A DNA stretch of 19,270 nucleotides. It comes from a virus. Taxonomy: Duplodnaviria; Heunggongvirae; Uroviricota; Caudoviricetes. A model generated the notes under the pieces. The model saw nothing but the letters and a program-made list of their open reading frames with translations. It was not told the DNA's origin and made no database searches. The stretch is taken from positions 1 through 19,270 of IMG/VR virus record IMGVR_UViG_2648501186_000011. One strand, written 5' to 3'. This document shows, one piece after another, positions 1-18,383 of the stretch (positions within the stretch are counted from its first letter, which is position 1; every line of letters starts with the position of its first letter). Made by a program: the position numbers and the translations under genes.

Positions 1-960
1 TCCACCAGACGCATAACGGAAAGTAAATCCGCGACCGTGCGCTTTGCCGGCAGAATGAGGAACGTTAAGAGTTAGATCCATGAGTCCATCTTGACCATTG
101 GTACGGAAAGCACCAAAGTAGTTAAGATCTCTCGCTGTCTGGTCTTCCAAATAGTTAGCTGTTTTGGTTAACAGATACCCACCATGCTTAGTATTGGTAT
201 TCTTCTTGATGTAAGCAGCATCGGCACTACCTTCAATAGAATCAATTCGCTGATTAGCTGCGGCAATTGCGGCATCAGTAGAAGATTTATTCTGGTCTAC
301 CTTGTTGTTAATTGCTGTATGGTTGCTATTAACTGTCCCCGTAAGATTGGTGATCTTCGTGTCGGCATCGCGTTTATTATTTGCTACGGTCGTTTCTATG
401 GATGATTTATTTGCTGCGATAGTATTCGTTAAGTTAGTAACGTTGGTATTAGTCTGATCAACTCGTGCATTAATATCTGTCTTGTTCTTGTTAATTGTTG
501 CGTTGATAGTATCGCGGGTTGAAGTAATAGTCTGATTCAGTTCAGTCTTAGCAGCCGCCAGAGCGTTAGCCGCTTCGGTTTTATTGTTACCTACTGTGGT
601 AGTCAAAGCATCAATTCGTTTGTTGGCTGCGGTGTCGCCAGCAGTGATTGAAGCATTGAGAGCATCACGGGTAGAAGTGATAGTCTGATTCAGTTCAGCT
701 TTAGCACTAGCCAGATTATTAGCGGCTTCTTGTTTGTTGGAAGCAATAACACGGTCAGTGCTAGTTTTGTTATTGTCTACTTTCGTATTCAGTTCAGCGT
801 GTTTTTCTGGAGAAACACTAATTTGGACTACGTTATTATTTTTGTCTTTGGTGTAAATCACATGATCCGCCAACTGTAAGGCGATCTCACCCTGTGATAA
901 TTGTTCCGGCGTTGGTTTTTTACCAGCCGTTTGTGTGCGTTTAAATTGGATCGACTGCAT
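1..960 (-). CDS. Tail-fibre-like protein, N-terminal 320 codons (3' end runs off the window)
   Basis: Absent from the ORF track because there is no stop inside the window. Manual minus-strand translation from ATG (plus 958-960) stays open for 320 codons to base 1: MQSIQFKRTQTAGKKPTPEQLSQGEIALQLADHVIYTKDKNNNVVQISVSPEKHAELNTK... SD AGGTGA 4 nt upstream. The N-terminus resembles the conserved start of many phage tail-fibre proteins; the body is Asn/Thr/Ala-rich and repetitive. Confidence 0.6.
   Translation of the reverse strand, partial: MQSIQFKRTQTAGKKPTPEQLSQGEIALQLADHVIYTKDKNNNVVQISVSPEKHAELNTKVDNNKTSTDRVIASNKQEAANNLASAKAELNQTITSTRDALNASITAGDTAANKRIDALTTTVGNNKTEAANALAAAKTELNQTITSTRDTINATINKNKTDINARVDQTNTNVTNLTNTIAANKSSIETTVANNKRDADTKITNLTGTVNSNHTAINNKVDQNKSSTDAAIAAANQRIDSIEGSADAAYIKKNTNTKHGGYLLTKTANYLEDQTARDLNYFGAFRTNGQDGLMDLTLNVPHSAGKAHGRGFTFRYASGG
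511..740. repeat. Imperfect ~152-bp tandem repeat inside the tail-fibre gene
   Basis: Plus 511-590 and 663-740 align at roughly 80% identity by eye (shared core tagtctgattcagttcag). In the protein this gives two copies of AKxELNQTITSTRDxxNAxI about 51 residues apart. Confidence 0.7.
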
Positions 961-6944: not shown

Positions 6945-8870
6945 TTAGAAGTTATTAACCCAGCTATTACGACGCACAGGACGCGCCATAGGACGACGAT
7001 TAGGCTTATTGTGAGGGATTGGCTTAGTTTCCTGTTTTTGCTCGTCAGAATGCGATTTAGGAGCTTCTACGGCGGTTTCTGTTTCACGGTTCAGCTTTTC
7101 TTTCAGTGCAATGAGTTTATCCCATGACATTTTTGAAAGAACATAGCGAGAAGCAGCCAGACAATACACAAAACAGTCGAGGCATTCGTTCCTCTGCGAT
7201 CCGGGATTTTTCACCCAACGTGTTCCGGTAGCGGTGCGCTTGATGGACTCACTAAGAAGCTGATCGAGATAGTCATCAGGAACGGTGTGTGATATCTCTA
7301 AGCCAATATGCGGATTATCCTTCAAGTTGCGTGTTAATAGCTCACGAACAGCGGTTTTACCGACGTTTACACCCAACATAAGCAATTCGTGACCACCCGT
7401 GGTAGTTGGCTTAACCGGAATCAGTGGAGCGTTACCGGAGGAACTCCCTTTAATGGCATGAAGATTTTTCCATTTGGTGCAAATGCGGTAGCCAGCTTGT
7501 GTAAATTTACCGTTCGAAGTATCAAGGAAACTAGCCAGAACAGGAACACGCTGGCCTGATACCGTGGTAAACCTGCTTTTCTGGAAGTTGATTAGCTTAT
7601 CCCATACAGGTGATTCGTATCTCTCACAGTTATAATCTCGGAAGACACGGTGATCGAGGATGTAAATCTTATCTTTCGCGATGCCTAGCATAGTTGACTC
7701 GACGCGATCCAACTGCTGGTCCACGCCAAATGTGGCGAAAATAACATCATCTGGGATATTTTCTACACAAACTTCGGTTTTCAGTTGTTCCAGTTCGTTG
7801 ACTTCTACCGCTGTTTCTGCGTCATCGTACACAGTGCCGAGAACTGTATTGTAAAAACTTTGTAAATCAAAGGTTTGCCACGCTTGCGAGAAGTCAGAAA
7901 CACATGATTTGATAGAGCTAAAAGGTGAATACAGACGGCTGATCCAGAATCCTGCTACATCACTTTCACGGGTAGCTCTCCATTCTCCTTGTGCAACCGC
8001 TCTAATGCGATCCCCTTCTGACCAATCACTCTGGCAATGAGGGCAAACATAACGGGCGCTTTCAACACATGGCAGATTGCGACCATCCTGATTTTTCCAC
8101 TCGAACTTAACATTTTCCCACTCGATCACCTGGTGTTTCCCGCAATGCGGACAAGGAACAAAGAATTTACGCTGATCACTTGATAACCATTGTTGATTAA
8201 TCGGTCCCAGCTTAGTGGTCGGGGTACTGGAAACGATAATTCTTGCTTCATCCCCGAAAGTGGTTGCGCGGTTAGCCGCAAGTGCAATCGGATCGCCCTC
8301 TTCACTAGCACTGGCAGCATCACATTCATCAAGCAGAATCAACGGGCTGGTTTTTGAACGCAAGGTTGATGGGCTAGTAAGCGATACCATGTAAAGAAAA
8401 TGATTAGTCTTAAGCTGAATCTGGCTATTGTTATTAACAGCGTTGCGATCATTCTTGTCGGTGATTGCTTCGCGTAATGCCGGACATGCTTCAATGGCTG
8501 GTCGGATCTTCCCGCTTAGGTACTGAGCGGTTTCCTTCGTGGTTGCTTGGCCTATGATGATATTGCTGGGATCGTTAGCTATCTTATTGAATAATATACC
8601 ATTAAGGATGGAAGTTTTGCCGATCTGGGCACTTGTACAAAAAATGTACTTTTTCTTATTCTCTAAGAAAGGAGCATCAATCATGCCTTTCTGAAAGCTG
8701 GTTAATTTAATTTTAGCGCCAGCTTGTGGTCCATCCACTAGGATCATGTTTTCCTCGCACCATTCAGATGGTAAACGCTTAATTGGCGGTCGGATATGTT
8801 TTGATACTTCGTTAAAAATTCGCTTGAGTTTAAATTTATTTGAGAGTTTTTTCACCGTGATTATCCTCAT
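6945..8870 (-). CDS. Terminase large subunit, lambda gpA family (641 aa)
   Basis: Similar in length to lambda gpA as I recall it. Walker A-like [10 protein letters not shown], Walker B-like [11 protein letters not shown], a Cys pair [13 protein letters not shown], and a C-terminal [16 protein letters not shown] that resembles the lambda gpA C-terminus (from memory). No SD before the ATG, and an in-frame stop 18 nt upstream excludes a longer N-terminus. Confidence 0.85.
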
Positions 8871-8925
8871 ATCAACAATATGTTGTATTTAGATAAATAC
8901 GGGTATTAAGATTTAAGGGGGTTGT

Positions 8926-9531
8926 ATGCTAATTAATCAGCAACAAAGAGATGAATTAGAATTAGCATTTTCTTATTGTACCGGTCATGAATATCGTTTA
9001 CCAGTTAAGCACAAGCATTTAAAAACAGATATAACCACTTCTGGCTTTAGTCGTGATGAAGCGAAACAGATTTTAATCGAGTTGTATCGCGATCATGGGT
9101 ATACCGATATTCATAACTTCTTTAAGAAGCATCGCACATCACAGACAGAGTTCCAGAGAGTCCGTGAATGGTTTGATTTTGATATCAAGCGTTATTATCG
9201 AGTGGATGACGGTCCTATCTATCGGTTGCAGTGGACACCGATCAGGGAAGTGTTGAAACAGAAGAGATTGAATCATGCCATTACACGCTATCGTAACGAG
9301 GCTTTCAAGAAAGGCTATGGTGATACAAGGGAACTATTCGTTGAACTCGCTAACGTGAAATATAGCCACTATTACAACGATCCTACAGGGTTCTTCGAAG
9401 TGCTTCGCAAGGTTGATATTAGTCGGGGTACATATTATTCACGGCTGAGGAAGTACGGGATTAAGGCAGAGTTCTTTATGTCGGTTGACGACTCACCCAT
9501 GTTCAAGATAAAATCTAAGTCCTCTAAATAA
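8926..9531 (+). CDS. Hypothetical basic protein (201 aa) with C-terminal HTH-like motif
   Basis: ORF track; SD AAGGGGG 5 nt upstream. The C-terminal VDISRGTYYSRLRKYGIK resembles the recognition helix of the two small GRP-HTH proteins in this window. Confidence 0.6.
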   Translation: MLINQQQRDELELAFSYCTGHEYRLPVKHKHLKTDITTSGFSRDEAKQILIELYRDHGYTDIHNFFKKHRTSQTEFQRVREWFDFDIKRYYRVDDGPIYRLQWTPIREVLKQKRLNHAITRYRNEAFKKGYGDTRELFVELANVKYSHYYNDPTGFFEVLRKVDISRGTYYSRLRKYGIKAEFFMSVDDSPMFKIKSKSSK

Positions 9532-9566: not shown

Positions 9567-9794
9567 ATGACTACTAAAGCTACTCGCGGTCGCCCTGCCC
9601 GTTTTACCCGTGAACAGATGGCTGATATTGCCTACGCTTACTATACAGCGGATCGCGGGAAGGAATCGAAAGAACAGATTCTTAGTGAACATGGGATTTC
9701 AGTAGCCCAATTCTATAAGAATATGAAGAAGTTAGACATTAAATTCTATGTTCAGATCGATGACGGTCAGATCGTAGAAGCAACAGGTTTTTGA
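9567..9794 (+). CDS. Small DNA-binding protein, GRP arm plus resolvase/Hin-type HTH (75 aa; start refined from 9534)
   Basis: ATG at 9567 has SD GGAGGA 7 nt upstream. The N-terminal TRGRPARFT is an AT-hook/Hin-like minor-groove arm and HGISVAQFYKNMKKL is a resolvase-type HTH. Paralogous to the 14077..14292 product. Confidence 0.6.
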   Translation: MTTKATRGRPARFTREQMADIAYAYYTADRGKESKEQILSEHGISVAQFYKNMKKLDIKFYVQIDDGQIVEATGF

Positions 9795-9809
9795 GTTTTG
9801 ATTCTCTTT

Positions 9810-9833
9810 GCCACTCTTCGGAGTGGCTTTTTT
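9810..9833 (+). terminator. Intrinsic terminator after the 8926-9794 module
   Basis: GCCACUC-UUCG-GAGUGGC followed by UUUUUU. Confidence 0.75.
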
Positions 9834-9877
9834 GTATATAAAACAATCTGAGCAAAACTGCGCACATCTCCATATAC

Positions 9878-9905
9878 AAAAAGCCCCACCATTACGGCAG
9901 GGCTT
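9878..9905 (-). terminator. Intrinsic terminator after the 214-aa gene
   Basis: Minus-strand RNA AGCCCUGCC-GUAAU-GGUGGGGCU followed by UUUUU. Closely related in sequence to the terminator at 2610-2635. Confidence 0.6.
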
Positions 9906-9909
9906 CTAA

Positions 9910-10554
9910 TCAGATTCCGAAGATAGCAAGGTCAATACAGTTTTCACTATCAAGCAAATCACCAGGACATTTCTTAGTCTTAGGCTTTCTAACACGCGTT
10001 TTAACGGCTTTAACCTTAATGGTCGTGGGGTTGGCTTCCTGTAACTTGATTTTCGCTCTCATGGCCTCGGCAGCAGCCATAATTTCTTCTTCTATTCTAT
10101 TTCTTTGTTCTTTCTCTCTTTGTGCTTGAAACAGTGCCAGCCTCATCCATTCTATCTTCTGGTGTTCTGGATCTGCATTAGCAAGAGCATCCTTCAAACG
10201 AAGATATTCAACCTTATCCGCATCACTCAAAGAATTATAGAAAGCAAGTTCTTTATTATTTCGTTGTTCTAGTTCCTCTTCCATACGGCGAATATCTTTG
10301 ACGATCATGTAAGCGATGTTAGCACTTAATCCCATCATGATAATCAACACGGATCGCTTTCCACCTCTACCTTCAAAGACATAATCACCATCGGTCTTAG
10401 TTGGCTTTTCTTTTAATGCATCCCAACATCTAAGCAATTCCTCTTCCGCCTTCTGATATGACACCTCACATACAACAGCAACCTCGCTTAAAAGCATAGA
10501 TTTAACGCTATCATCACGCATAGCACGGGTAATATCTTCAATAGTCAGATTCAT
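9910..10554 (-). CDS. Hypothetical protein (214 aa)
   Basis: ORF track; SD GAGGA 6 nt upstream. One moderately hydrophobic segment (SVLIIMMGLSANIAYMIV) and a charged coiled-coil-like C-terminal half. Confidence 0.6.
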   Translation of the reverse strand: MNLTIEDITRAMRDDSVKSMLLSEVAVVCEVSYQKAEEELLRCWDALKEKPTKTDGDYVFEGRGGKRSVLIIMMGLSANIAYMIVKDIRRMEEELEQRNNKELAFYNSLSDADKVEYLRLKDALANADPEHQKIEWMRLALFQAQREKEQRNRIEEEIMAAAEAMRAKIKLQEANPTTIKVKAVKTRVRKPKTKKCPGDLLDSENCIDLAIFGI

Positions 10555-10567
10555 AGTGTTCTATCCT

Positions 10568-10593
10568 CAATAAAAGCCCCATATTTCAGGGGC
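10568..10593 (-). terminator. Intergenic hairpin with U-tract between the Rha gene and the 214-aa gene
   Basis: Minus-strand RNA GCCCC-UGAAAUAU-GGGGC followed by UUUUAUUGAGGA, immediately before the SD of the next gene; more likely an attenuator than a full stop. Confidence 0.5.
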
Positions 10594-10607
10594 AAAATAA
10601 TAAAAAA

Positions 10608-11480
10608 TTAAATTCCAAAGTATTCCAGCGATCCGGCGTTCTTACGAATCAGTGCGGCAGTATTATTGACGATTGCACGAGCATTGTTAGGCTGCGGTAA
10701 TTTCAAAGTTGCTCGTTGTTCTTCTTCAATCAATCCCAATTTAACCAGCACAGGTAAACAGTCAGTTGTGAACTCAAGCTGACCATGTGCTGATTGTCGA
10801 GCGTACATGTAAGCAGGAGGAAGAACATCATAGCCGTTAGGCTTACCAGAAGCATCCAGACGACGCTCAATGTGTTTAGCCTCACATAACCCTTTCAGAA
10901 TGCGCTGTACCTTGCCAGAGCCTCGTTTTTCGCCCAATAAGCGGGTTAAGCTGTGTGCGTCAATGGCACGGCGAACATGGAGATCAACTAATTGTTGATT
11001 CTCGTGAAGCAATTGTTCTTTTTCTTCTTCAAGTTTAACCGCTTCGCGCATCCAGTCGAGCTTAGTCATCTTGCTTGCGTCTGGGAACGGATTAGCTTCT
11101 TTGTTTGCCAATTCTGTTAGTAAACGTGCGTTTTCCTCTTTCAGAATCTTCCATTCTTTAATTACACGATTACGAATCGGTGTGCTATATCCAGTGACAA
11201 GAGTCATGCAAAGTTCTTCGTTCAAATGGCATACCGGATCTTTAACAACAATACCTAAGCCATTGATTTTCTCCACAAGACCAAAATTGGACTCCTGCGG
11301 GATACCCAATTCTTTGTACATCACGCGAATGTCACGCAAAACATGTTTATGTTTCTTTCCGGTAAACTCGGCGATCTGGAAAGATGACATAGTTAATTCT
11401 TTTTCTACAGAGTCGTTTGCAGCAACCAGAGACACGGAAGCAGTTTTAACAGCAGTATTCATAGTAGTAACAGTATTCAT
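10608..11480 (-). CDS. Rha-family phage regulatory protein / antirepressor-like (290 aa)
   Basis: N-terminal FQIAEFTGKKHKHVLRDIRVMYKELGI matches the HxxVLRDI signature I associate with the Rha family. The start is ambiguous between M1 (11480, SD AAGGGG 10 nt upstream) and M7 because of an 18-bp tandem duplication. Confidence 0.65.
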   Translation of the reverse strand: MNTVTTMNTAVKTASVSLVAANDSVEKELTMSSFQIAEFTGKKHKHVLRDIRVMYKELGIPQESNFGLVEKINGLGIVVKDPVCHLNEELCMTLVTGYSTPIRNRVIKEWKILKEENARLLTELANKEANPFPDASKMTKLDWMREAVKLEEEKEQLLHENQQLVDLHVRRAIDAHSLTRLLGEKRGSGKVQRILKGLCEAKHIERRLDASGKPNGYDVLPPAYMYARQSAHGQLEFTTDCLPVLVKLGLIEEEQRATLKLPQPNNARAIVNNTAALIRKNAGSLEYFGI

Positions 11481-11522
11481 AGTAGTAATTCCCCTTTCGG
11501 TTTAGTGATATTGATCCTCCTA

Positions 11523-11554
11523 GTTCCGGCATCACCACCGGAACATTTTTATTT
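11523..11554 (+). terminator. Palindromic hairpin with plus-strand U-tract
   Basis: GTTCCGG-catcacca-CCGGAAC followed by ATTTTTATTT on the plus strand. Oriented to stop plus-strand (antisense) transcription entering the minus-strand operon. Confidence 0.45.
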
Positions 11555-11568
11555 ATGATAGAAATTTA

Positions 11569-11901
11569 TTACCAATCGATTTCTACTTGGTCTTCTTCAT
11601 AATAAGGAATCGCATATTCATAACGCCAATTTTCGATGATTTCACGTTCTTCATTAGTAAGAAGGTGATTGTTAACTGGAGTCGCATTGTGATTACCAGC
11701 TTCGAATTGCTCGCGAACTTCCAGCATTGCATGAATACCAGTTAAGGACATCAGATCAAACGGAACATGCATACTACGGGAGATAGTTTCACGGGATACG
11801 CCCCAATCATTTTCTACATGGCTAGGGGTTACAGAAACGGTTTTGCCGGAGATTTTAACAGTCCAGTCATACAGGGATTTAGTGATGGTAAATTCTTTCA
11901 T
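11569..11901 (-). CDS. Hypothetical protein (110 aa)
   Basis: ORF track; SD AGAGGA upstream; promoter-like sequence immediately upstream. Confidence 0.6.
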   Translation of the reverse strand: MKEFTITKSLYDWTVKISGKTVSVTPSHVENDWGVSRETISRSMHVPFDLMSLTGIHAMLEVREQFEAGNHNATPVNNHLLTNEEREIIENWRYEYAIPYYEEDQVEIDW

Positions 11902-11957
11902 GTTACATCCTCTTTACAAATCTAGGTCAAATAGGTTCAAAGTTGTCAAGTGCGATA

Positions 11958-11986
11958 ATCATAAAAAAGTTTGAAGATATTGTCAA
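11958..11986 (-). promoter_or_regulatory. Sigma70-like promoter: TTGACA, 17-nt spacer, TATGAT
   Basis: Read on the minus strand: -35 at plus 11981-11986, -10 at plus 11958-11963. The -35 overlaps the palindrome at 11980-12000. Confidence 0.6.
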
Positions 11987-12000
11987 ATACCCCTTGACAA
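11980..12000. promoter_or_regulatory. Operator-like palindrome TTGTCAA-N7-TTGACAA
   Basis: Perfect 7-bp inverted repeat with a 7-bp spacer. Further TTGTCAAG, GGTCAAA, GTTCAAA and GTTGACC half-site-like copies between 11923 and 12018. Confidence 0.5.
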
Positions 12001-12022
12001 GACGCCAAAGGGTTGACCTAAC

Positions 12023-12490
12023 TTACAGCATATCTAAGCCTTCATCGTAACCATAGAAGCCATTCTGAGAAGAGAAACAGATTGGAGCGTAGTCGTCGTC
12101 ATCTTCGTCTTGTTCATCGCGTTCTGGTGCTTTCTGAGCGGTTTCTTTGCCGTAGTTAAACATTGCTTCATCCAGTTCATAGACAGTAACGAAGCTACCC
12201 AGGTCAATGTCACCGGAACGGACTTCAAACGGAAGATCATCACGAACAATAATTGCTGGTAGATTCTGGTACTTTAAGCGTTCTTCATCGGTGAAGACGT
12301 TAACAACAATGGTCGGCTTCTTATTACGGCAAAACGCATACCATGCACTAGAGAAATGAGATTCATCAGAGTTGAAAAGAATGTTGTAACCACGTTCACG
12401 GAACATCTTCATTAACTTGTCATTGTGGAAGCTATCAGCATCAAAACCTAACAGGATGAAAGGAGTAGTGGTAGTCATTTTATGGTTCAT
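12023..12490 (-). CDS. Hypothetical acidic protein (155 aa)
   Basis: ORF track; SD AGAGGA 8 nt upstream. First gene leftward of the repeat hub. An inverted repeat AGTGAA-N9-TTCACT (12512-12532) lies in its leader. Confidence 0.6.
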   Translation of the reverse strand: MNHKMTTTTPFILLGFDADSFHNDKLMKMFRERGYNILFNSDESHFSSAWYAFCRNKKPTIVVNVFTDEERLKYQNLPAIIVRDDLPFEVRSGDIDLGSFVTVYELDEAMFNYGKETAQKAPERDEQDEDDDDYAPICFSSQNGFYGYDEGLDML

Positions 12491-12564
12491 AGTGGAAATC
12501 CTCTAAAAGAAAGTGAATCAAGTAAGTTCACTATTATTTATAAAGAGAAAATTCTTGTTATTAT

Positions 12565-12882
12565 GAAAAGAGTGATCTGGTAGAGTCCAAAACTGGTCTG
12601 TACTTGAAAGGTGATTGGATTCAGTCGGGCTAAAGCCCTCCTTCATAGATTTTGATTAAATCATCACCAAAACGAAGAAGTATCTTTAGAATATAAGAAT
12701 CTTTCTTTTGAAGAAATAATAATAATCAAACAAGATGGACGCTCCCTGAGCGTCTGCGAAGCATATCTAATTCCTTCCAGTATCATCAAAGTGATCTAGA
12801 ATCAGTTTGTAATCATTATCTTCAAAGTGATTGTAATATCTTTATCTTGAAAGTGATTATAACTACCTTCTTCAAAGTGATC
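12565..12882. repeat. Direct-repeat family (A/T)TCTTSAAAGTGAT, four good and two degenerate copies
   Basis: Cores at 12787-12795, 12823-12831, 12849-12857 and 12873-12881 spaced 24-36 bp; degenerate copies near 12565-12577 and 12603-12616. Confidence 0.7.
12738..12754. other. Perfect palindrome GACGCTC-cct-GAGCGTC
   Basis: 7-bp inverted repeat with a 3-nt spacer in non-coding DNA. Confidence 0.4.
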
Positions 12883-12943
12883 TTGAATCATCATGTAAAC
12901 CAGATTAAAATCCCTTCCTGAATGATTTCAAAACAGATTACTC

Positions 12944-12959
12944 GCGCCCCGCAGGGCGC
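12944..12959 (+). other. Hairpin GCGCCC-CGCA-GGGCGC followed by a T-rich stretch
   Basis: 6-bp stem then ATAATATTCTTTTCTTTT on the plus strand; terminator-like, sharing the GCCCCGCAGG core with 6921-6940. Confidence 0.4.
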
Positions 12960-13074
12960 ATAATATTCTTTTCTTTTATCTACAATCTCTTTCATACCAA
13001 CTCTTTACTATTAACTATTACATATTACATATGACACCCTTCTAAGCCTTGTCCTGTCTGGGTTTCCGTGATTT

Positions 13075-13166
13075 TTGTACATCCTTGTACATCGTAGTAC
13101 ATGTGTTGTACATCCTTGTACATCCTTGTACACGTCACGTACATAGATGTACATCCTTGTACATCT
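13075..13166. repeat. Helically phased array of nine TTGTACATCC-type repeats
   Basis: GTACA begins at 13077, 13087, 13097, 13108, 13118, 13128, 13139, 13149 and 13159, a 10-11 bp period, so every copy is on one face of the helix. Confidence 0.8.
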
Positions 13167-13249
13167 AGGTTAAAAACCAATCAAAAATAGCCATAAAATC
13201 ACCATTTTGAGGGTGTATTTGCTCAATATTTCATCGTGTTTTTGTGATT

Positions 13250-13322
13250 CTGTACAGCAAATCTGTGTCTTGTACACCTTGTACATCTAATACATGTCTT
13301 GTACACCTTGTACATCTAATAC
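13250..13322. repeat. Second TGTACA cluster with two ~28-bp direct repeats
   Basis: gtcttgtacaccttgtacatctaatac occurs twice (about 13267-13293 and 13296-13322). GTACA at 13252, 13272, 13281, 13301 and 13310. Confidence 0.75.
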
Positions 13323-13495
13323 CGGGGAATAGCCCCCCTAATACCGGGGGATTTGTGGATACTAATACCGGGGAAAAAAAACCTAATACCGGGGGATTTT
13401 TATGTGGATGAATGATGGCCTAATCCGGGGGATTCTCTTACAGGACGGTTATCATTTACCCCCTAATACCGGGGAAATTAACCTAATCCGGGGGA
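13316..13495. repeat. Seven iteron-like direct repeats CTAAT(A)CCGGGG(G)A with DnaA-box-like motifs
   Basis: Copies start at 13316, 13338, 13362, 13383, 13420, 13463 and 13483, mostly 20-24 bp apart. TGTGGATAc (13353-13361) and TGTGGATGA (13403-13411) resemble the DnaA box TGTGGATAA. An AT-rich stretch follows at 13540-13640. Confidence 0.75.
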
Positions 13496-13643
13496 TTTTT
13501 GCTTCCAAAACGGGGATATCGCGGGGAAACCCTTAAATTCATTCAAATATTTTGATAGAAAATTCTTGTATATTATTTAACCAAAAAATCATCAAAAATC
13601 GCTGTAGCTTAATGATTTAAAAGGAATTTTCAAAAGGTCACCG

Positions 13644-13652
13644 TGCTATAAT
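13644..13652 (+). promoter_or_regulatory. Possible extended -10 promoter element (TGcTATAAT)
   Basis: TATAAT at 13647-13652 with TG at 13644-13645; only a weak -35 (TTTTCA region). Confidence 0.35.
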
Positions 13653-13732
13653 AGGTTATAAAGGTTGATAATCATTATTCGCCATTTTCACACAAAAATT
13701 TTGATAGTCTTTTCTCGCTTAGGTCAAGGGTA

Positions 13733-13761
13733 TTGACATCTGTCAAGGATTATTTTATGCT
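13733..13761 (+). promoter_or_regulatory. Sigma70-like promoter TTGACA, 17-nt spacer, TATGCT, with overlapping palindrome
   Basis: -35 at 13733-13738, -10 at 13756-13761. The palindrome TTGACA-tc-TGTCAA (13733-13746) recalls the 11980-12000 operator-like site. Confidence 0.5.
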
Positions 13762-13942
13762 TTTTCTCGTTGGTAGGGGTTGAAATTTTCAAAACAATCC
13801 CCATATAGATGATAAGCAAGATTTTCTCGCTACTAAATACATGTGAGCGATGATTATGACTCACTGACCTGAAAAGCTGAAACAGCATAAAATTCTAAAA
13901 AATGCGGTTTTCAGTTTTTCAAAAAGGGGTACAGGAGTCAGA

Positions 13943-13984
13943 ATGATTAAAAAATCGCCAGATAATATTCTGTCTATAGCGTAA
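13943..13984 (+). other. 13-codon mini-ORF (MIKKSPDNILSIA) with a strong SD
   Basis: AGGAG (13932-13936) 6 nt before the ATG at 13943; stop at 13982-13984. It is followed about 35 nt later by the terminator hairpin at 14021-14041, a leader-peptide-like arrangement. Confidence 0.35.
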
Positions 13985-14020
13985 AACTAAGCGCATTACA
14001 GAATAATATAAATATCATCG

Positions 14021-14041
14021 AGAGCGGTTAACGCTCTTTTT
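14021..14041 (+). terminator. Intrinsic terminator/attenuator upstream of the first rightward gene
   Basis: AGAGCG-GUUAA-CGCUCU followed by UUUUU, 20 nt upstream of the SD for the 14077 gene. Confidence 0.6.
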
Positions 14042-14076
14042 AATAAGAAAGATTTGTCTCTTAAGGGGAAGAAACT

Positions 14077-14292
14077 ATGAAAAACTCAATCATGGGGCGT
14101 CCGGTTAAAATCACCGAAGAAAAATACAAAGAAATCCTGATTGCTTACCACTCACAAGTTAATGCAACGAATGCTGATCGTGATGCACTTCTGGCAAAAT
14201 ATGGAATTACTCGCCGGACGTTTTCAAGGCTAGCTCATCGTTACCCAAATGTGAAAGTCGTAACTAAAGTGGTGAATGTAGAAATAGCATAA
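14077..14292 (+). CDS. Small DNA-binding protein, GRP arm plus resolvase/Hin-type HTH (71 aa)
   Basis: SD AAGGGG 8 nt upstream. MGRPVKIT...LLAKYGITRRTFSRLAHRY is paralogous to the 9567..9794 product. Confidence 0.65.
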   Translation: MKNSIMGRPVKITEEKYKEILIAYHSQVNATNADRDALLAKYGITRRTFSRLAHRYPNVKVVTKVVNVEIA

Positions 14293-14396: not shown

Positions 14397-15512
14397 ATGT
14401 CTAACAAGAATAACACTTCAATTGTATTTATTAACTTCAAAAACGACGAAAGCATTCTGAGCAACAATGAACAGATCGTGATGAAAGATTGTGGTGAAAA
14501 TGTCACTACCGTTTTCAAAGAAACTGCAAACACTCTAACCGAACTGGTTGCTAAAGTTCGCGGATATGGTGCTGTTCGTAAAGCTGAGTTTGAGATGGTT
14601 CAAAACTATACCCGCTCTGTTACGGTTGGCGACAAGAAATATAACAAAAACACACATAAGCTGATCGCTAATGATGAAATCAAACTGGTACAGATTTGCA
14701 CTACCGACAAAAACGCTATTTTCTTGTTGGTTGTTCTTGAAAATGAAGCTGGTTTACGTCGCGGTGTTCTGCGTCACCGTTCCATGCGTAATGAAGCTGG
14801 TGTGATTGGTTCTAAAATCCATAACCGCGCATACACTTCTACTTCCAACTGGATCATTGCTGGCGAGAACGAAGGTAAAACAGGCGAGACTTTCAACATT
14901 GCTTTCTTCTCTGCTTTTGACGAAAAGAAACATGTTAAATGGAAACTGAATAATGAAGCCGTAGAAGCTCCTGTGCGCGATTCTGAGAAACAATCTGTTG
15001 AAATCGATGAATCCCACATCATGGCTATGATTCGCGGCGTAGAGAAGCGTTTACGTGATGAATTTAACGCTAAACTTGAAGCTAAAGACAAAGAGATCGC
15101 GGAACTGAAAGCACGTTTAGAAGCAGTAGAAATCAAGACTATTGACACTACTGAAAATCCTGTTTCTAAAGACGTTGTTGCTGATCTGCAATGCGAGATC
15201 CAGATCGCCAGCGACTTCCAGAAAGCAACCAACAAACTCAATGCAAAATTAGAGCGTCGTGATAATGGTCAGCGTCTGTCTGGTGATGATATTCAGGTTA
15301 TTCTGCGCGGTGATATGAAAGAGATTAATGCTAAGTTTGCACCGAAAGGTGTTTTTGCTAGCAAGATTAACGAAGCCCAGGTCGATGAATTGATGCACGC
15401 GTTAGAAGCAGACACCAACGAGACTGTTAAAGCCGCTAATGATGACGTTGCGGCATCTGCAATCGTTTCTGACGAATATTTGAAAGAATTAGATGCACTT
15501 TTGGCTATGTAA
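14397..15512 (+). CDS. Hypothetical protein A (371 aa): N-terminal globular domain plus C-terminal coiled-coil-like region
   Basis: ORF track; SD GGAG 10 nt upstream. The C-terminal half is rich in charged, heptad-like sequence (KLEAKDKEIAELKARLEAVE). No recognisable family. Confidence 0.7.
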   Translation: MSNKNNTSIVFINFKNDESILSNNEQIVMKDCGENVTTVFKETANTLTELVAKVRGYGAVRKAEFEMVQNYTRSVTVGDKKYNKNTHKLIANDEIKLVQICTTDKNAIFLLVVLENEAGLRRGVLRHRSMRNEAGVIGSKIHNRAYTSTSNWIIAGENEGKTGETFNIAFFSAFDEKKHVKWKLNNEAVEAPVRDSEKQSVEIDESHIMAMIRGVEKRLRDEFNAKLEAKDKEIAELKARLEAVEIKTIDTTENPVSKDVVADLQCEIQIASDFQKATNKLNAKLERRDNGQRLSGDDIQVILRGDMKEINAKFAPKGVFASKINEAQVDELMHALEADTNETVKAANDDVAASAIVSDEYLKELDALLAM

Positions 15513-15539
15513 TTTTAATTTTTAAGAGGAATAACGATT

Positions 15540-16631
15540 ATGAAGACTTACACCGACATTACCAACAAACAATTTTCTACCGCTGATCATTCGGTGGTTA
15601 GGCTTGCTATCTGGTCAGATATGAAATTTACCTTTAAATTTGGGTGTAAAGGATTTAAGATTAATTTTTCAGTTGACCACGTATTACCGGACCGCGCTGA
15701 TGACCTGATTAAGATTTTGCGTTATCGTGGCTATGGCCTAACCAATGGTGAGTTAACCATGATCTACAGCTTCGTTAATAAATCCGGTGATATGCTTGTT
15801 CGTAATATTACTGGTTATGAAATTAACGGTAAAAAAGGTGTTGCTATGACCGTTGTTGGTCGTGGTGGTATGGTTGCCGTTTATACATTCGGGTATAGCG
15901 CATTTTATAGCAAGAAAAATGATTACTATTATGGCAAGCGCACTAAACTAGATCATTACGGTCGTTATAGCCTGGGTGTTGCGGCTAAATATGAAAGTTG
16001 TATTGTTCTTAAAGATTCGATTCATGGTGAATTTGAAATCATGTCACAATACGACAAAACGCCTTATGACTACTACCGTGTAAAAGTTAAAGTACCGAAA
16101 GTGTTAGAGCCTCACGAATCTCATGTTGAATGCCGTGCTAAAACAATTAAAAAACTGCGTGATGAGAATGACCAGCTTTCTACGCGTCTAAGCAAGTTAA
16201 AAACCAAAGTACGAGATAAACGTAATCGTCACACTATCGAAGAACGTAAAGCTGCATACGATGAATACGTGGTTACTTTAAAGAAACGTGATGCTTTGCG
16301 TGAGTATTTTTGCAAAATCGATGCGATGTGCGCTGGTCGTTTGTACAGAGGAAAGAATGTGGCTGCGGTGAGTTTTGAGGAAATGGCAGAATTAACGCCT
16401 ATCAAGGAAGAGATTCAACTACCGAATGAAAAGGTTGCTTTGGTTAACGAAAAACGTAAACTAGTTGAAAAGGTGGCACAGGTGGATAAAGAGATTAAAA
16501 CTAGCGAAGGAATGGTTAAAGAGGCGTACATCGCTTTGCGTGATTCCTTAGAGATTCAAATCAAGCATATTGACCTTGAGATCTTGAAACTGTCCATGCC
16601 TAACCGCCCTACTCTACGTCTTGTTGCTTAA
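15540..16631 (+). CDS. Hypothetical protein B (363 aa): aromatic-rich N-terminal domain plus basic coiled-coil-like C-terminus
   Basis: ORF track; SD AAGAGGA upstream; 27 nt after gene A, so probably co-transcribed. Ends at the strong terminator at 16644-16676. Confidence 0.7.
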   Translation: MKTYTDITNKQFSTADHSVVRLAIWSDMKFTFKFGCKGFKINFSVDHVLPDRADDLIKILRYRGYGLTNGELTMIYSFVNKSGDMLVRNITGYEINGKKGVAMTVVGRGGMVAVYTFGYSAFYSKKNDYYYGKRTKLDHYGRYSLGVAAKYESCIVLKDSIHGEFEIMSQYDKTPYDYYRVKVKVPKVLEPHESHVECRAKTIKKLRDENDQLSTRLSKLKTKVRDKRNRHTIEERKAAYDEYVVTLKKRDALREYFCKIDAMCAGRLYRGKNVAAVSFEEMAELTPIKEEIQLPNEKVALVNEKRKLVEKVAQVDKEIKTSEGMVKEAYIALRDSLEIQIKHIDLEILKLSMPNRPTLRLVA

Positions 16632-17348: not shown

Positions 17349-17906
17349 TTACGACACATCAAATTCATCGTCTTCTTGTTCTTCTTCCGGTTCTTCCTGC
17401 TTCACTTCCTCATCTTCTGAGTATTCATCGTAGGCATCAAGATCCGGTGAAATCATAATATCCCCGATCTCATTCAAACGAGCGGAAATGATATCCTTCA
17501 ATGTTTCTTTCAAAGTACGCTGATCCGTTGCAGCTTCCATAATTTTTAGAGTGTCTACCGTCGCCACCTGCATCATGGTCTGGCGTACATCACCACAAAA
17601 TCCGGCTAGAACTGTTTCTACATAACCTACAGGAATCAGATCATTTAGTTCGGTGCGGTTCTTAAGTTCGATGGCATCGGCCTCGCCTCTCGCCTTTCTT
17701 AATCGTTCTTGTTGGATCTGCGCTTGTACATCCACTTCCCTAAGTGGGTTAATGATGTTCTCAAGCACCCAGGCGATCGCTCTATCCCGTGGACAACGGC
17801 GGGTATTCGTATTATACGGAAGACCACGATCACGCCATTTCTGAACAGCCGGAAGGGAATACCCATACATTTTAGATAATTCGGTTAAAGTTACTTCTTG
17901 CGTCAT
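17349..17906 (-). CDS. Terminase small subunit, lambda Nu1 family (186 aa; start refined from 17981)
   Basis: ATG at 17904-17906 has SD AGAGGA 7 nt upstream; the ORF-track start has none. N-terminal HTH LTELSKMYGYSLPAVQKWRDRGLPY and central ERLRKARGEADAIELKN...VETVLAGFCGDV parallel lambda Nu1 as I recall it. Acidic C-terminal tail. Confidence 0.65.
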   Translation of the reverse strand: MTQEVTLTELSKMYGYSLPAVQKWRDRGLPYNTNTRRCPRDRAIAWVLENIINPLREVDVQAQIQQERLRKARGEADAIELKNRTELNDLIPVGYVETVLAGFCGDVRQTMMQVATVDTLKIMEAATDQRTLKETLKDIISARLNEIGDIMISPDLDAYDEYSEDEEVKQEEPEEEQEDDEFDVS

Positions 17907-18214
17907 GAAACTATCCTCTGAGCTAAAAATATGCGTAATTGTATTTAGACGAAATACGCAATATAACGGCCTATAACGCAATTTAAGAAAATCCCATGTG
18001 ACGGGGCGTTGAGAAGTGATTTAGCTCGTTGTAGGGCTTGTTTGGTGGCTTAACTAAACCAATTTGAAAAAGGCACAAGCGAGATTTAAACCGCGCCGGG
18101 CAAAACACGCCCTCTTTTGCCACCTATCACAGTACCTTTTTGTTGTCAAGTCTTTTTTATCGAATATTTTAAATTTTTTCATCTTTTTTCTCGTGCATTC
18201 ATCCGTTTTTTTCT

Positions 18215-18283
18215 CGGTCAAAATCAATGACTTGACCAGTTGACACTGATCCGGTCATCAATATAATCGGTCACACTTTGACC
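18215..18283. promoter_or_regulatory. Cluster of CGGTCA / TGACC half-sites around the lipoprotein promoter
   Basis: CGGTCA at 18215, 18252 and 18268; TTGACC at 18232 and 18278. Includes the palindrome GGTCA-cactt-TGACC (18269-18283) just downstream of the -10. Confidence 0.45.
18240..18267 (+). promoter_or_regulatory. Near-consensus sigma70 promoter TTGACA, 16-nt spacer, TATAAT
   Basis: -35 TTGACA at 18240-18245 and -10 TATAAT at 18262-18267, about 115 nt upstream of the lipoprotein start codon. Confidence 0.7.
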
Positions 18284-18383
18284 ATGTAAGGTGTGTTTCG
18301 GATGTGAGGATTAACGATAGATATTTACATAAATAAAGATGTGGTTAATCCATTCATCAATTTAATTCTCTGGAGGATATTCT

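What the first reader, a model, noticed from the sequence alone, without database searches (positions are those of the whole stretch)
9567..14292. Two paralogous stand-alone GRP-arm plus Hin/resolvase-type HTH proteins
The 75-aa and 71-aa products share a GRP minor-groove arm followed by a recognition helix resembling the DNA-binding domain of serine recombinases, but no catalytic domain. Each sits at the head of a rightward module, one directly beside the repeat hub, making them candidate binders of the repeats.
Basis: partly seen in the sequence, partly recalled or inferred. Interest (0 to 1): 0.5.

Follow-up and report, generated by a model that had tools for sequence, protein, structure and literature searches.

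The report
Orphan phage HTH proteins, not iteron binders
The two small genes are real, related members of an undescribed family of helix-turn-helix DNA-binding proteins in an uncharacterised E. coli/Salmonella prophage lineage, but comparison with related phages indicates that the nearby DNA repeats belong to the larger proteins encoded downstream, not to them.

Summary
Both ORFs (9567-9794, 75 aa; 14077-14292, 71 aa) are real genes under purifying selection. They are homologous (hhalign E 1.3e-7). Each has a flexible N-terminal R-P arm, a three-helix homeodomain-like HTH and a C-terminal beta-hairpin.

The 201-aa ORF just upstream of the 75-aa gene holds two more copies of the module.

The resemblance to the Hin/resolvase DNA-binding domain is real in pattern only. 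It stays below every curated threshold, so this is an orphan family: 11 hits among 1.84 billion representatives.

The window is a chromosomal prophage. A 92.7%-identical relative lies inside hicB and carries a serine integrase.

The 71-aa gene heads a portable cassette: iterons, promoter, leader, terminator hairpin, small HTH, large protein(s). The 75-aa gene heads nothing. It is the second gene of a conserved two-gene operon divergent from terL.

Across 39 related loci the iteron family tracks the downstream large protein perfectly. The HTH alleles, although encoded between iterons and large protein, reassort freely. The repeat-binder idea is therefore not supported.

Most likely these are regulators acting at conserved non-iteron sites. 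Modest interest.

The parts
9567..9794 (+). P75: 75-aa stand-alone HTH protein. RGRP arm, three helices (15-27, 32-41, 46-55), beta-hairpin (61-71).
   Evidence: ORF and SD. 22 homologue clusters, all from E. coli, Shigella or Salmonella prophages. AF2 model. dN/dS about 0.2-0.3.
14077..14292 (+). P71: 71-aa paralogue (allele E of the positional 'MARPVKFTRE' family). First gene of the rightward cassette.
   Evidence: ORF. Two close clusters only. hhalign to the P75 family E 1.3e-7. A 59-72 aa homologue occupies the same position in every related locus. dN 0.097, dS 1.3 against Salmonella.
8926..9531 (+). p201: 201-aa protein with two tandem copies of the same HTH + beta-hairpin module but no GRP arm. 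First gene of the p201-P75 operon, divergent from terL.
   Evidence: P75 matches residues 41-98 and 134-189, each E 2e-5. The joint profile hits the homologue P0033 in two stretches. AF2 shows two H-H-H-hairpin modules. 35 homologue clusters of constant length. Present next to terL in all loci.
8896..8907 (.). AATACGGGTATT near-palindrome, 19 nt upstream of the p201 start. Candidate operator of the p201-P75 operon (inferred).
   Evidence: Invariant in the E. coli and Salmonella loci while the flanks vary; partial in the Proteus-like L045. No other intergenic copy with 2 or fewer mismatches.
9810..9835 (+). Intrinsic terminator ending the p201-P75 operon.
   Evidence: GCCACTCttcgGAGTGGC followed by TTTTTT.
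12783..12881 (+). Repeat family 1 (AAAGTGAT, 4 copies), in the conserved left part of the hub.
   Evidence: 4 of the 5 window copies lie here; 1.27 expected. Related motifs occur in the hubs of other loci.
13075..13312 (+). Repeat family 2: TGTACAYC iterons (~15 copies), specific to this cassette.
   Evidence: Replaced by other iterons wherever the large protein differs.
13316..13497 (+). Repeat family 3: CTAATACCGGGG iterons (8 copies). Related CGGGGA iterons occur in L001/L013/L034, which carry a homologue of the 363-aa protein.
13733..13761 (+). Conserved sigma-70-like promoter (TTGACA N17 TATGCT) whose -35 lies inside the palindrome TTGACAtcTGTCAA (13733-13746).
   Evidence: Conserved in related loci whatever the HTH allele; the central dinucleotide varies.
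13776..13802 (+). Conserved imperfect hairpin GGGGTTG...CAATCCCC at the start of the leader.
   Evidence: Alignment; sequence.
14020..14041 (+). Terminator-like hairpin (AGAGCG gttaa CGCTCT) plus a T-run, about 35 nt before the P71 ATG.
   Evidence: Folded. An equivalent hairpin + T-run with a different stem sequence is present in 10 of 10 loci examined, including the T4-like L043. Not listed by the consensus scan (borderline T-run).
14397..15512 (+). 371-aa large protein (LP): conserved N-terminal domain plus coiled coil. Inferred iteron-binding protein.
   Evidence: Weakly homologous to the LPs of other cassettes (E 1e-5 to 1e-16). No Pfam, PHROG, PADLOC or PDB family. Perfect linkage with iteron type.
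15540..16631 (+). 363-aa second large protein: N-terminal domain, coiled coil, C-terminal PTLRLVA.
   Evidence: 29% identical to L001_333, E 5e-29. Cassettes with two iteron families have two large proteins.

Best explanation
P75 and P71 are paralogous members of a small, previously undescribed family of stand-alone homeodomain-like HTH proteins. The fold class is the one shared by the HTH domains of Hin, Tc3 and IS3 proteins. Each protein has a flexible N-terminal [G/A]-R-P arm, three helices and a short C-terminal beta-hairpin. The window holds four such modules, because the 201-aa protein upstream of P75 is a tandem duplicate of the module.

They belong to an uncharacterised enterobacterial prophage lineage in which a ~8.5-kb early/replication region lies between a Nu1-like terS and a gpA-like terL.

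Most likely mechanism (inferred, not shown): both are sequence-reading DNA-binding regulators that act at conserved, non-iteron sites.

- P71 is the first gene of a portable cassette: iterons, sigma-70 promoter, leader, terminator hairpin, small HTH, large protein(s). It most plausibly acts as a Cro- or Cop-like regulator of that cassette's promoter/leader, or as a specificity-neutral helper of the large protein.
- The iterons themselves are read by the N-terminal domains of the downstream large proteins: 371 aa for TGTACAYC and 363 aa for CTAATACCGGGG/CGGGGA.
- P75 and p201 form a separate, always-conserved operon that diverges from terL. They most plausibly bind the invariant AATACGGGTATT element at their own 5' end (autoregulation) and possibly the conserved early promoters.

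Shown: coding status, homology, fold class, operon structure, and the iteron-to-large-protein linkage. Inferred: DNA binding, the target sites, and the regulatory role.
For: Homology and fold:
- Sequence and profile comparisons.
- AF2 models.
- Sub-threshold Pfam hits are confined to HTH_Tnp_1, HTH_7, HTH_23 and HTH_28.
- The register with the Hin DNA-binding domain is consistent: GRP aligns on GRP and GI..ST.Y on GI..STLY (pairwise E 9e-4).

Real genes: dN/dS well below 1.

Context:
- The lineage is a chromosomal prophage found in 63 of 5426 complete E. coli genomes.
- In the closest relative it sits in hicB and carries a 559-aa serine recombinase.
- p201 and P75 lie next to terL in all 33 IMG/VR loci and in the Salmonella and other loci.
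- A P71-type gene is the first ORF right of the hub in every locus.

Iterons belong to the large protein: LP type and iteron family agree in 39 of 39 loci, while HTH alleles A, C and E each occur with two different iteron families. Cassettes with two iteron families have two large proteins.

Portability: the same cassette layout (iterons GCGATTAC, TTGACA promoter, hairpin + T-run, 64-aa HTH, 204-aa LP, 80-aa coiled coil) is inserted between gp3-like and gp2 genes of a T4-like phage contig.

Conserved candidate sites: AATACGGGTATT upstream of p201; TTGACAnnTGTCAA at the cassette promoter; GGGTATT occurs 7 times against 2.0 expected, three copies being in the three promoter regions.
Against: - No direct evidence of DNA binding.
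- No family-level assignment passes a curated cut-off.
- No non-coding element was found that co-varies with the P71-type alleles. Promoter palindrome and leader type are independent of allele. A Cro-like operator relationship is therefore unproven, and the divergent recognition helices (QSTFHKLLKKY against RRTFSRLAHRY) are unexplained.
- The GGGTATT and KGTCAA enrichments overlap -35 hexamers and are not well conserved in other loci.
- The large protein's N-terminal domain has no recognisable DNA-binding fold by sequence.
Confidence: 0.55

Rival explanations
1. One reading: P71 and/or P75 are the proteins that bind the repeat families of the hub, as iteron- or centromere-binding proteins.
For: P71 is the small HTH gene nearest to the repeats. 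Proteins made of tandem arrays of related HTH modules exist (P0027, P0028, P0030, P0032), as does the two-module p201. This hints that the module can read tandem DNA repeats. The conserved AAAGTGAT family has no assigned binder. In L042 an iteron array (TCAGATGCCAtttt, 7 copies) lies directly upstream of the p201-like gene.
Against: Nearly identical P71-type alleles occur with entirely different iterons. Allele A goes with TTTCAGGGGC and with TAGTGTAGG. Allele E goes with TGTACATC/CTAATACCGGGG and with GCTAGGGAT. Conversely, the same GCTAGGGATA iterons occur with allele E and with a C-like allele. Iterons track the large protein 39 of 39 times even though the HTH gene lies between them. P75 is conserved across all iteron types.
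Confidence: 0.1
2. p201 and P75 serve the late/packaging functions. Either they activate the terL-portal-capsid operon from the 55-bp divergent intergenic region, or they are accessory cos-recognition proteins working with the Nu1-like TerS.
For: They are always adjacent to and divergent from terL. No good sigma-70 promoter for terL is visible in the 55-bp gap; this is my reading of the sequence. The leftward early operon appears to terminate before P75 (sequence), so terL needs its own, probably activator-dependent, promoter. The invariant AATACGGGTATT element lies in that gap. Nu1-type TerS proteins use a winged HTH to read repeated sites (established knowledge).
Against: There is no similarity to known late activators or to small terminases. 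A separate TerS is present at 17349-17981. No repeated copies of the element were found near the presumed cos region upstream of terS.
Confidence: 0.15
3. The small proteins are not classical DNA-binding regulators. They act through protein or RNA contacts, for example by controlling read-through of the conserved terminator hairpin in front of P71, by acting as adaptors of the large proteins, or as directionality factors for the serine integrase.
For: A terminator-like hairpin just upstream of the P71-type RBS is conserved in structure but not in sequence in 10 of 10 loci, so expression of the cassette needs read-through. P71-type alleles are interchangeable between cassettes, as expected for a factor that contacts something common to them. 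The integrase of the closest relative is a large serine recombinase, whose directionality factors are small and diverse (established knowledge).
Against: The fold and the arm are those of DNA-binding HTH domains. P71 lies downstream of the terminator, so it cannot be the first trigger of read-through. The genes are far from the integrase, and the T4-like phage cassette has no integrase nearby.
Confidence: 0.1

Closest known systems
C-terminal DNA-binding domain of small serine recombinases (Hin, gamma-delta resolvase; Pfam HTH_7, PF02796)
   Same: An N-terminal G-R-P arm is followed by a three-helix HTH. The alignment keeps one register throughout (GRP on GRP; G-I-x-x-S-T-x-Y recognition helix). 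The best Pfam hit of P75 is HTH_7.
Transposase-type homeodomain-like HTH domains (IS3 OrfA/HTH_Tnp_1, HTH_23, HTH_28; Tc3, CENP-B, Brinker/psq, IstA)
   Different: No hit reaches a curated cut-off. There is no transposase context. The beta-hairpin extension is not part of those domains.
Cro-type first gene of a phage early-right operon that precedes the replication genes (lambda cro-cII-O-P logic); small Cop/regulator genes ahead of rep in iteron plasmids
   Same: P71 is a small DNA-binding-type protein and the first gene after a strong promoter. It is followed by the proteins that match the iterons. Regulator alleles reassort relative to replication modules, as in lambdoid mosaics.
   Different: The fold is different. 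No operator co-variation with allele was found. A terminator hairpin sits between promoter and gene. No CI-like partner is annotated in the closest relative.
AlpA-type small HTH activators ahead of replication genes in P4-like satellites and PICIs (Pfam Phage_AlpA, PF05930)
   Same: Similar size, and the same position at the head of a replication-type operon in a mobile element (from knowledge of these elements).
   Different: No sequence hit to Phage_AlpA. HTH_17 was hit by only one of 20 members, at E 0.029. AlpA is a MerR-like winged helix, a different fold.

Membership tests
HTH_7 (resolvase/invertase DNA-binding domain, PF02796) | Score at or above Pfam's gathering threshold (23.8 bits) | tested here: not met
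   P75 scores 15.2 bits, E 0.023. P71 gives no HTH_7 hit. Only 5 of 20 family members match at E up to 1, the best being E 0.023.
HTH_7 (resolvase/invertase DNA-binding domain, PF02796) | N-terminal G-R-P minor-groove arm directly preceding helix 1 | tested here: met
   RGRP is invariant in the P75 family and MGRP is present in P71. The arm is unstructured in AF2. Positional homologues of P71 have M-A-R-P, M-A-K-P or M-A-R-T instead, and the p201 modules lack the arm.
HTH_7 (resolvase/invertase DNA-binding domain, PF02796) | Covalently linked to a serine-recombinase catalytic domain | tested here: not met
   The proteins are 75 and 71 aa in total. Homologues are 59-75 aa with no other domain.
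HTH_7 (resolvase/invertase DNA-binding domain, PF02796) | Binds recombination half-sites | not testable with these tools
   Needs EMSA or footprinting.
Homeodomain-like three-helix HTH fold | Three-helix bundle with an HTH, significantly similar to solved members | tested here: inconclusive
Iteron-binding (initiator or centromere) proteins of this hub | Protein specificity co-varies with the iteron sequence across related elements | tested here: not met
   HTH alleles A, C and E each occur with two different iteron families. The downstream large protein matches the iteron family in 39 of 39 loci.
Cro-like regulator of the cassette promoter | First gene downstream of the promoter it would regulate | tested here: met
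   A conserved TTGACA N17 TATRCT promoter lies ~340 nt upstream, and P71-type is the first ORF in all loci.
Cro-like regulator of the cassette promoter | Operator sequence co-varies with the regulator allele | tested here: not met
   The palindrome TTGACAnnTGTCAA and the leader type do not follow the allele.

The most novel reading that the evidence does not exclude
The four-module family could be the dedicated control system of an unstudied prophage lineage in whose closest relative no CI-type repressor is annotated. In this reading p201 and P75 are the master switch, phase-variable in some members through a (CTTGT)n tract. The P71-type protein is a specificity-neutral licensing factor of a self-contained, terminator-gated iteron cassette that moves between temperate enterobacterial prophages and virulent T4-like phages.
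Probability: 0.15. Interest if true: 0.6.

Novelty: new member of a known kind. Interest (0 to 1): 0.35.

Why it matters
The family adds an undescribed, very narrowly distributed group of stand-alone HTH proteins with an N-terminal arm, present as four modules in one phage. It also corrects the assignment of the repeat hub: the iterons belong to the large coiled-coil proteins downstream.

The comparative result yields a clean, testable map of an unstudied E. coli/Salmonella prophage lineage: who binds what, which part is a swappable cassette, and where expression is gated. That lineage is present in about 1% of complete E. coli genomes.

The broader interest lies less in the two small proteins than in the portable iteron cassette they accompany. 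That cassette also occurs in a T4-like phage.

Tried and rejected
Family and structure searches that assigned nothing:
- Pfam, NCBIfam, PHROGs and PADLOC gave no family at threshold for P75, P71, p201 or the large proteins.
- Profile searches of PDB sequences with A1, A2, A4 and A6 gave only chance or coiled-coil hits.

Searches for relatives or prior description:
- tblastn of P75 against 50,697 phage records found nothing, and the closest isolated phage by TerL is only 46% identical.
- There is no near match among plasmids.
- The literature search by protein accession, and by prophage/hicB/serine recombinase, found nothing relevant.

Searches for binding sites:
- I looked for an operator that co-varies with the P71-type alleles. 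Promoter palindrome, leader type and flanks are all independent of allele.
- The GGTCAA/TTGACC cluster at 18216-18285 looked like a shared operator, but it belongs to a cargo gene present in only three loci.
- KGTCAA enrichment in intergenic DNA is confounded by -35 hexamers.

Other:
- Rfam at gathering and at E-value thresholds found no RNA family in the hub.
- A scan for further (CTTGT)n carriers found only the two loci already known.


Full report
**What the window is.**
- The 19.3-kb window is part of a chromosomal prophage. Megablast finds related sequence in 63 of 5426 complete E. coli genomes, always on chromosomes. The best match covers 80% at 92.7% identity. Nothing similar is found in plasmids. 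In isolated phages the only match is a 177-bp tail-fibre tip.
- In the closest relative the ~40-kb element is inserted in hicB and has a 559-aa 'recombinase family protein' (large serine recombinase) at its far end.
- The window layout is as follows.
  - Structural genes on the minus strand, ending with a gpA-type terL at 6945-8870.
  - A plus-strand pair: a 201-aa ORF at 8926-9531 and the 75-aa ORF at 9567-9794, closed by a terminator.
  - Four minus-strand genes, including a Rha-family gene.
  - A 1.6-kb non-coding hub at 12491-14076.
  - Plus-strand genes of 71, 371 and 363 aa.
  - A minus-strand Nu1-like terS at 17349-17981.
- The early/replication-type region therefore lies between terS and terL.

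**The observation.**
- Both ORFs are real. Each has a Shine-Dalgarno sequence.
- Homologues begin at the same residue.
- Substitution patterns show purifying selection. P75 gives dN ~0.03 and dS 0.12-0.17. P71 against its Salmonella allele gives dN 0.097 and dS 1.3.
- The two proteins are homologous:
  - BLASTP gives a pairwise E of 8e-6.
  - hhalign of the two family alignments gives 94% probability and E 1.3e-7.
  - A 64-aa protein from a T4-like phage is hit by both queries.
  - A joint profile retrieves both families from 1.84 billion representatives.
- AlphaFold2 of P75 (pLDDT 78.8) shows an unstructured arm at residues 1-14, helices at 15-27, 32-41 and 46-55, and a beta-hairpin at 61-71.

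- P75 also matches two separate stretches of the upstream 201-aa protein, residues 41-98 and 134-189, each at E 2e-5.
- The joint profile hits a p201 homologue in two stretches.
- AlphaFold2 of p201 (pLDDT 71) shows two helix-helix-helix-hairpin modules joined by disordered linkers.
- The window therefore encodes four copies of the module. P75 is the second gene of an operon, not the head of one.

**How close it is to the Hin/resolvase domain.**
- The pattern is right: G-R-P, then helix 1, then G-I-x-x-S/T-x-F/Y in the recognition helix. A profile-to-sequence alignment with the Hin DNA-binding domain keeps this register.
- Nothing passes a curated threshold.
  - HTH_7 scores 15.2 bits against 23.8 for P75, and P71 gives no HTH_7 hit.
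  - Across 20 diverse family members the sub-threshold hits spread over HTH_Tnp_1, HTH_7, HTH_23 and HTH_28.
- Structure searches are equally weak.
  - Foldseek and PDB sequence profiles give nothing significant.
- The family is tiny. The profile search of 1.84 billion representatives returned 11 hits. These were the two families, p201, two distant small proteins, and a few proteins built of tandem arrays of similar HTH modules.
- I file it as a new family of the homeodomain-like HTH class, not as a member of HTH_7.

**Who owns the repeats.** I fetched 33 related loci from IMG/VR, six Salmonella loci carrying an 86%-identical P71 and two more distant loci.
- p201 and P75 sit next to terL in all of them.
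- In all of them the first ORF to the right of the hub is a 59-72 aa protein of the P71 type. Most begin MARPVKFTRE, and the window's P71 is a divergent allele.
- The right part of each hub carries iterons that differ between loci. The iteron family agrees with the type of the large protein encoded after the small HTH gene in 39 of 39 loci:

| Large protein | Iteron family | Loci |
|---|---|---|
| 313-319 aa (MLFSANFF) | TTTCAGGGGC | 15/15 |
| 328-341 aa (MKNSKRITFN) | TAGTGTAGG | 13/13 |
| 333-340 aa (MKQNNFS) | CGGGGA type | 3/3 |
| 304-330 aa (NTKFTINVHN) | GCTAGGGATA | 8/8 |
| 371 aa (the window) | TGTACAYC | 1 |

- The small HTH gene lies physically between iterons and large protein, yet its alleles reassort.
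  - Allele A occurs with two iteron families, and so does allele C.
  - The window's allele E occurs with TGTACAYC/CTAATACCGGGG here and with GCTAGGGAT in Salmonella.
- Cassettes with two iteron families (the window; L001, L013 and L034) encode two large proteins. The 363-aa protein's homologue goes with related CGGGGA-type iterons.
- The large proteins share a weakly conserved N-terminal domain followed by a coiled coil, and belong to no known family.
- This is strong comparative evidence that the large proteins, not P71 or P75, read the variable iterons.
- P75 is conserved across every iteron type, so it cannot be specific for any of them.

**The cassette.**
- A sigma-70-like promoter lies upstream of every P71-type gene. 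Its -35 hexamer sits in the palindrome TTGACAnnTGTCAA (window 13733-13761). A conserved imperfect hairpin follows, then a leader of mosaic type.
- A GC hairpin with a T-run lies 25-40 nt before the start codon. Its stem sequence differs between loci while the structure is kept, in 10 of 10 loci. Expression of P71 and the large proteins therefore seems to need read-through of a terminator.
- The same layout is inserted between gp3-like and gp2 genes in a 168-kb T4-like phage contig. There it reads: GCGATTAC iterons, TTGACA promoter, hairpin + T-run, 64-aa HTH, 204-aa large protein, 80-aa coiled-coil protein. The cassette is therefore portable.

**Candidate targets of the small proteins (inferred).**
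- An AATACGGGTATT near-palindrome lies 19 nt upstream of the p201 start. It is invariant in the E. coli and Salmonella loci while its flanks vary.
- The cassette promoter palindrome is conserved whatever the HTH allele.
- GGGTATT occurs 7 times against 2.0 expected (0 of 200 shuffles reach 7). Three copies lie in the three promoter regions (8901+, 11992-, 13728+), all oriented towards the downstream gene. This motif is not well conserved in the other loci.
- The AAAGTGAT repeats at 12788-12881 lie in the conserved left part of the hub and have no assigned binder.
- I found no element that co-varies with the P71-type alleles, so a Cro-like operator relationship remains unproven.

**Verdict.**
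- The structural analogy to Hin-type domains is reasonable, but membership is not established.
- The placement 'at the head of a module' is wrong for P75.
- The functional idea of repeat binding is contradicted for the variable iterons by comparative evidence.
- The most likely role is regulatory DNA binding at conserved sites: P71 within a terminator-gated, portable iteron cassette, and P75 with p201 as a conserved operon beside terL.
- No literature on this lineage was found.

Noticed in passing
window 13075-13497 with 14397-16631; loci L001-L046: Iteron family and downstream large-protein type are in perfect linkage across 39 loci, although the small HTH gene between them reassorts. Cassettes with two iteron families encode two large proteins. 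The large proteins (conserved N-terminal domain plus coiled coil) belong to no known family and are the likely iteron readers.
   Followed up: yes
L043 4894-6625 (T4-like phage contig, 168 kb): A complete cassette is inserted between gp3-like and gp2 genes of a T4-like phage. It comprises GCGATTAC iterons, a TTGACA promoter, a hairpin + T-run, a 64-aa P71-type protein, a 204-aa large protein and an 80-aa coiled-coil protein. A temperate-phage module is thus shared with a virulent phage.
   Followed up: partly
window 14020-14041; equivalent positions in L001, L003, L004, L005, L008, L036, L042, L043, L045: A terminator-like GC hairpin plus T-run lies 25-40 nt upstream of every P71-type start codon. 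The stem sequences differ but the structure is kept. Together with the conserved promoter and a ~290-nt leader, this suggests regulated read-through or a leader RNA. No Rfam family matches.
   Followed up: partly
L031 9369-9413 and L035 9379-9413 (5' part of the p201 homologue): A (CTTGT)n tract replaces 13 nt of the p201 coding sequence. With n = 9 and n = 7 the gene is out of frame in both loci, while n = 8 would be in frame. This looks like slipped-strand phase variation of p201. Only these two carriers were found in IMG/VR.
   Followed up: partly
window 16611-16631 (C-terminus of the 363-aa protein); L001_333, L005_80, L036_98 and the large proteins of other loci: The second cassette proteins all end in ...(P)(T/K)LR(L/I)VA. 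Several large proteins end in ...AA (YAYAA, LDFAA, LNIAA). These ssrA-like C-termini suggest protease (ClpXP-type) control or a shared docking motif.
   Followed up: no
window 6945-8870 and 17349-17981: The gpA-like terL and the Nu1-like terS are on the same strand but separated by ~8.5 kb holding the whole early/replication region. A conserved element CAGTACCTTTTnnTTTGTCAAGTCTTTTTTAT (window ~18127-18160) lies upstream of terS in all loci. It could be a promoter or part of cos.
   Followed up: partly
window 1-177: The end of the tail-fibre gene is 98.8% identical to tail-fibre genes of T4-like coliphages (ELT4, PTE-Eco09), while the rest of the prophage has no close relative among isolated phages. 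This points to exchange of a receptor-binding tip.
   Followed up: no
window 12491-12990; hubs of L001-L036: The left ~450 nt of the hub is conserved between loci. It is packed with short GC-rich hairpins (e.g. GACGCTCagggAGCGTC, CGCGCCCCGCAGGGCGCA) and with AAAGTGAT / AATCCCTTC motifs. Function unknown: structured RNA, terminators or binding sites.
   Followed up: no
L042 1-3325 (Logan contig): A distant lineage carries, within 3.3 kb, TCAGATGCCAtttt iterons (7 copies), a p201-like gene, a P75-type gene (P0031), two AP2-domain proteins ending in ...AVAA/...ALAA, a leader and a P71-type gene. The P75-type and P71-type genes therefore co-occur outside the E. coli/Salmonella prophages.
   Followed up: partly
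window 18216-18285: A cluster of GGTCAA/TTGACC half-sites, including GGTCAA-N10-TTGACC, lies upstream of the 190-aa lipoprotein-like cargo gene. It is present only in the loci that carry that gene (the window, L001, L013).
   Followed up: partly
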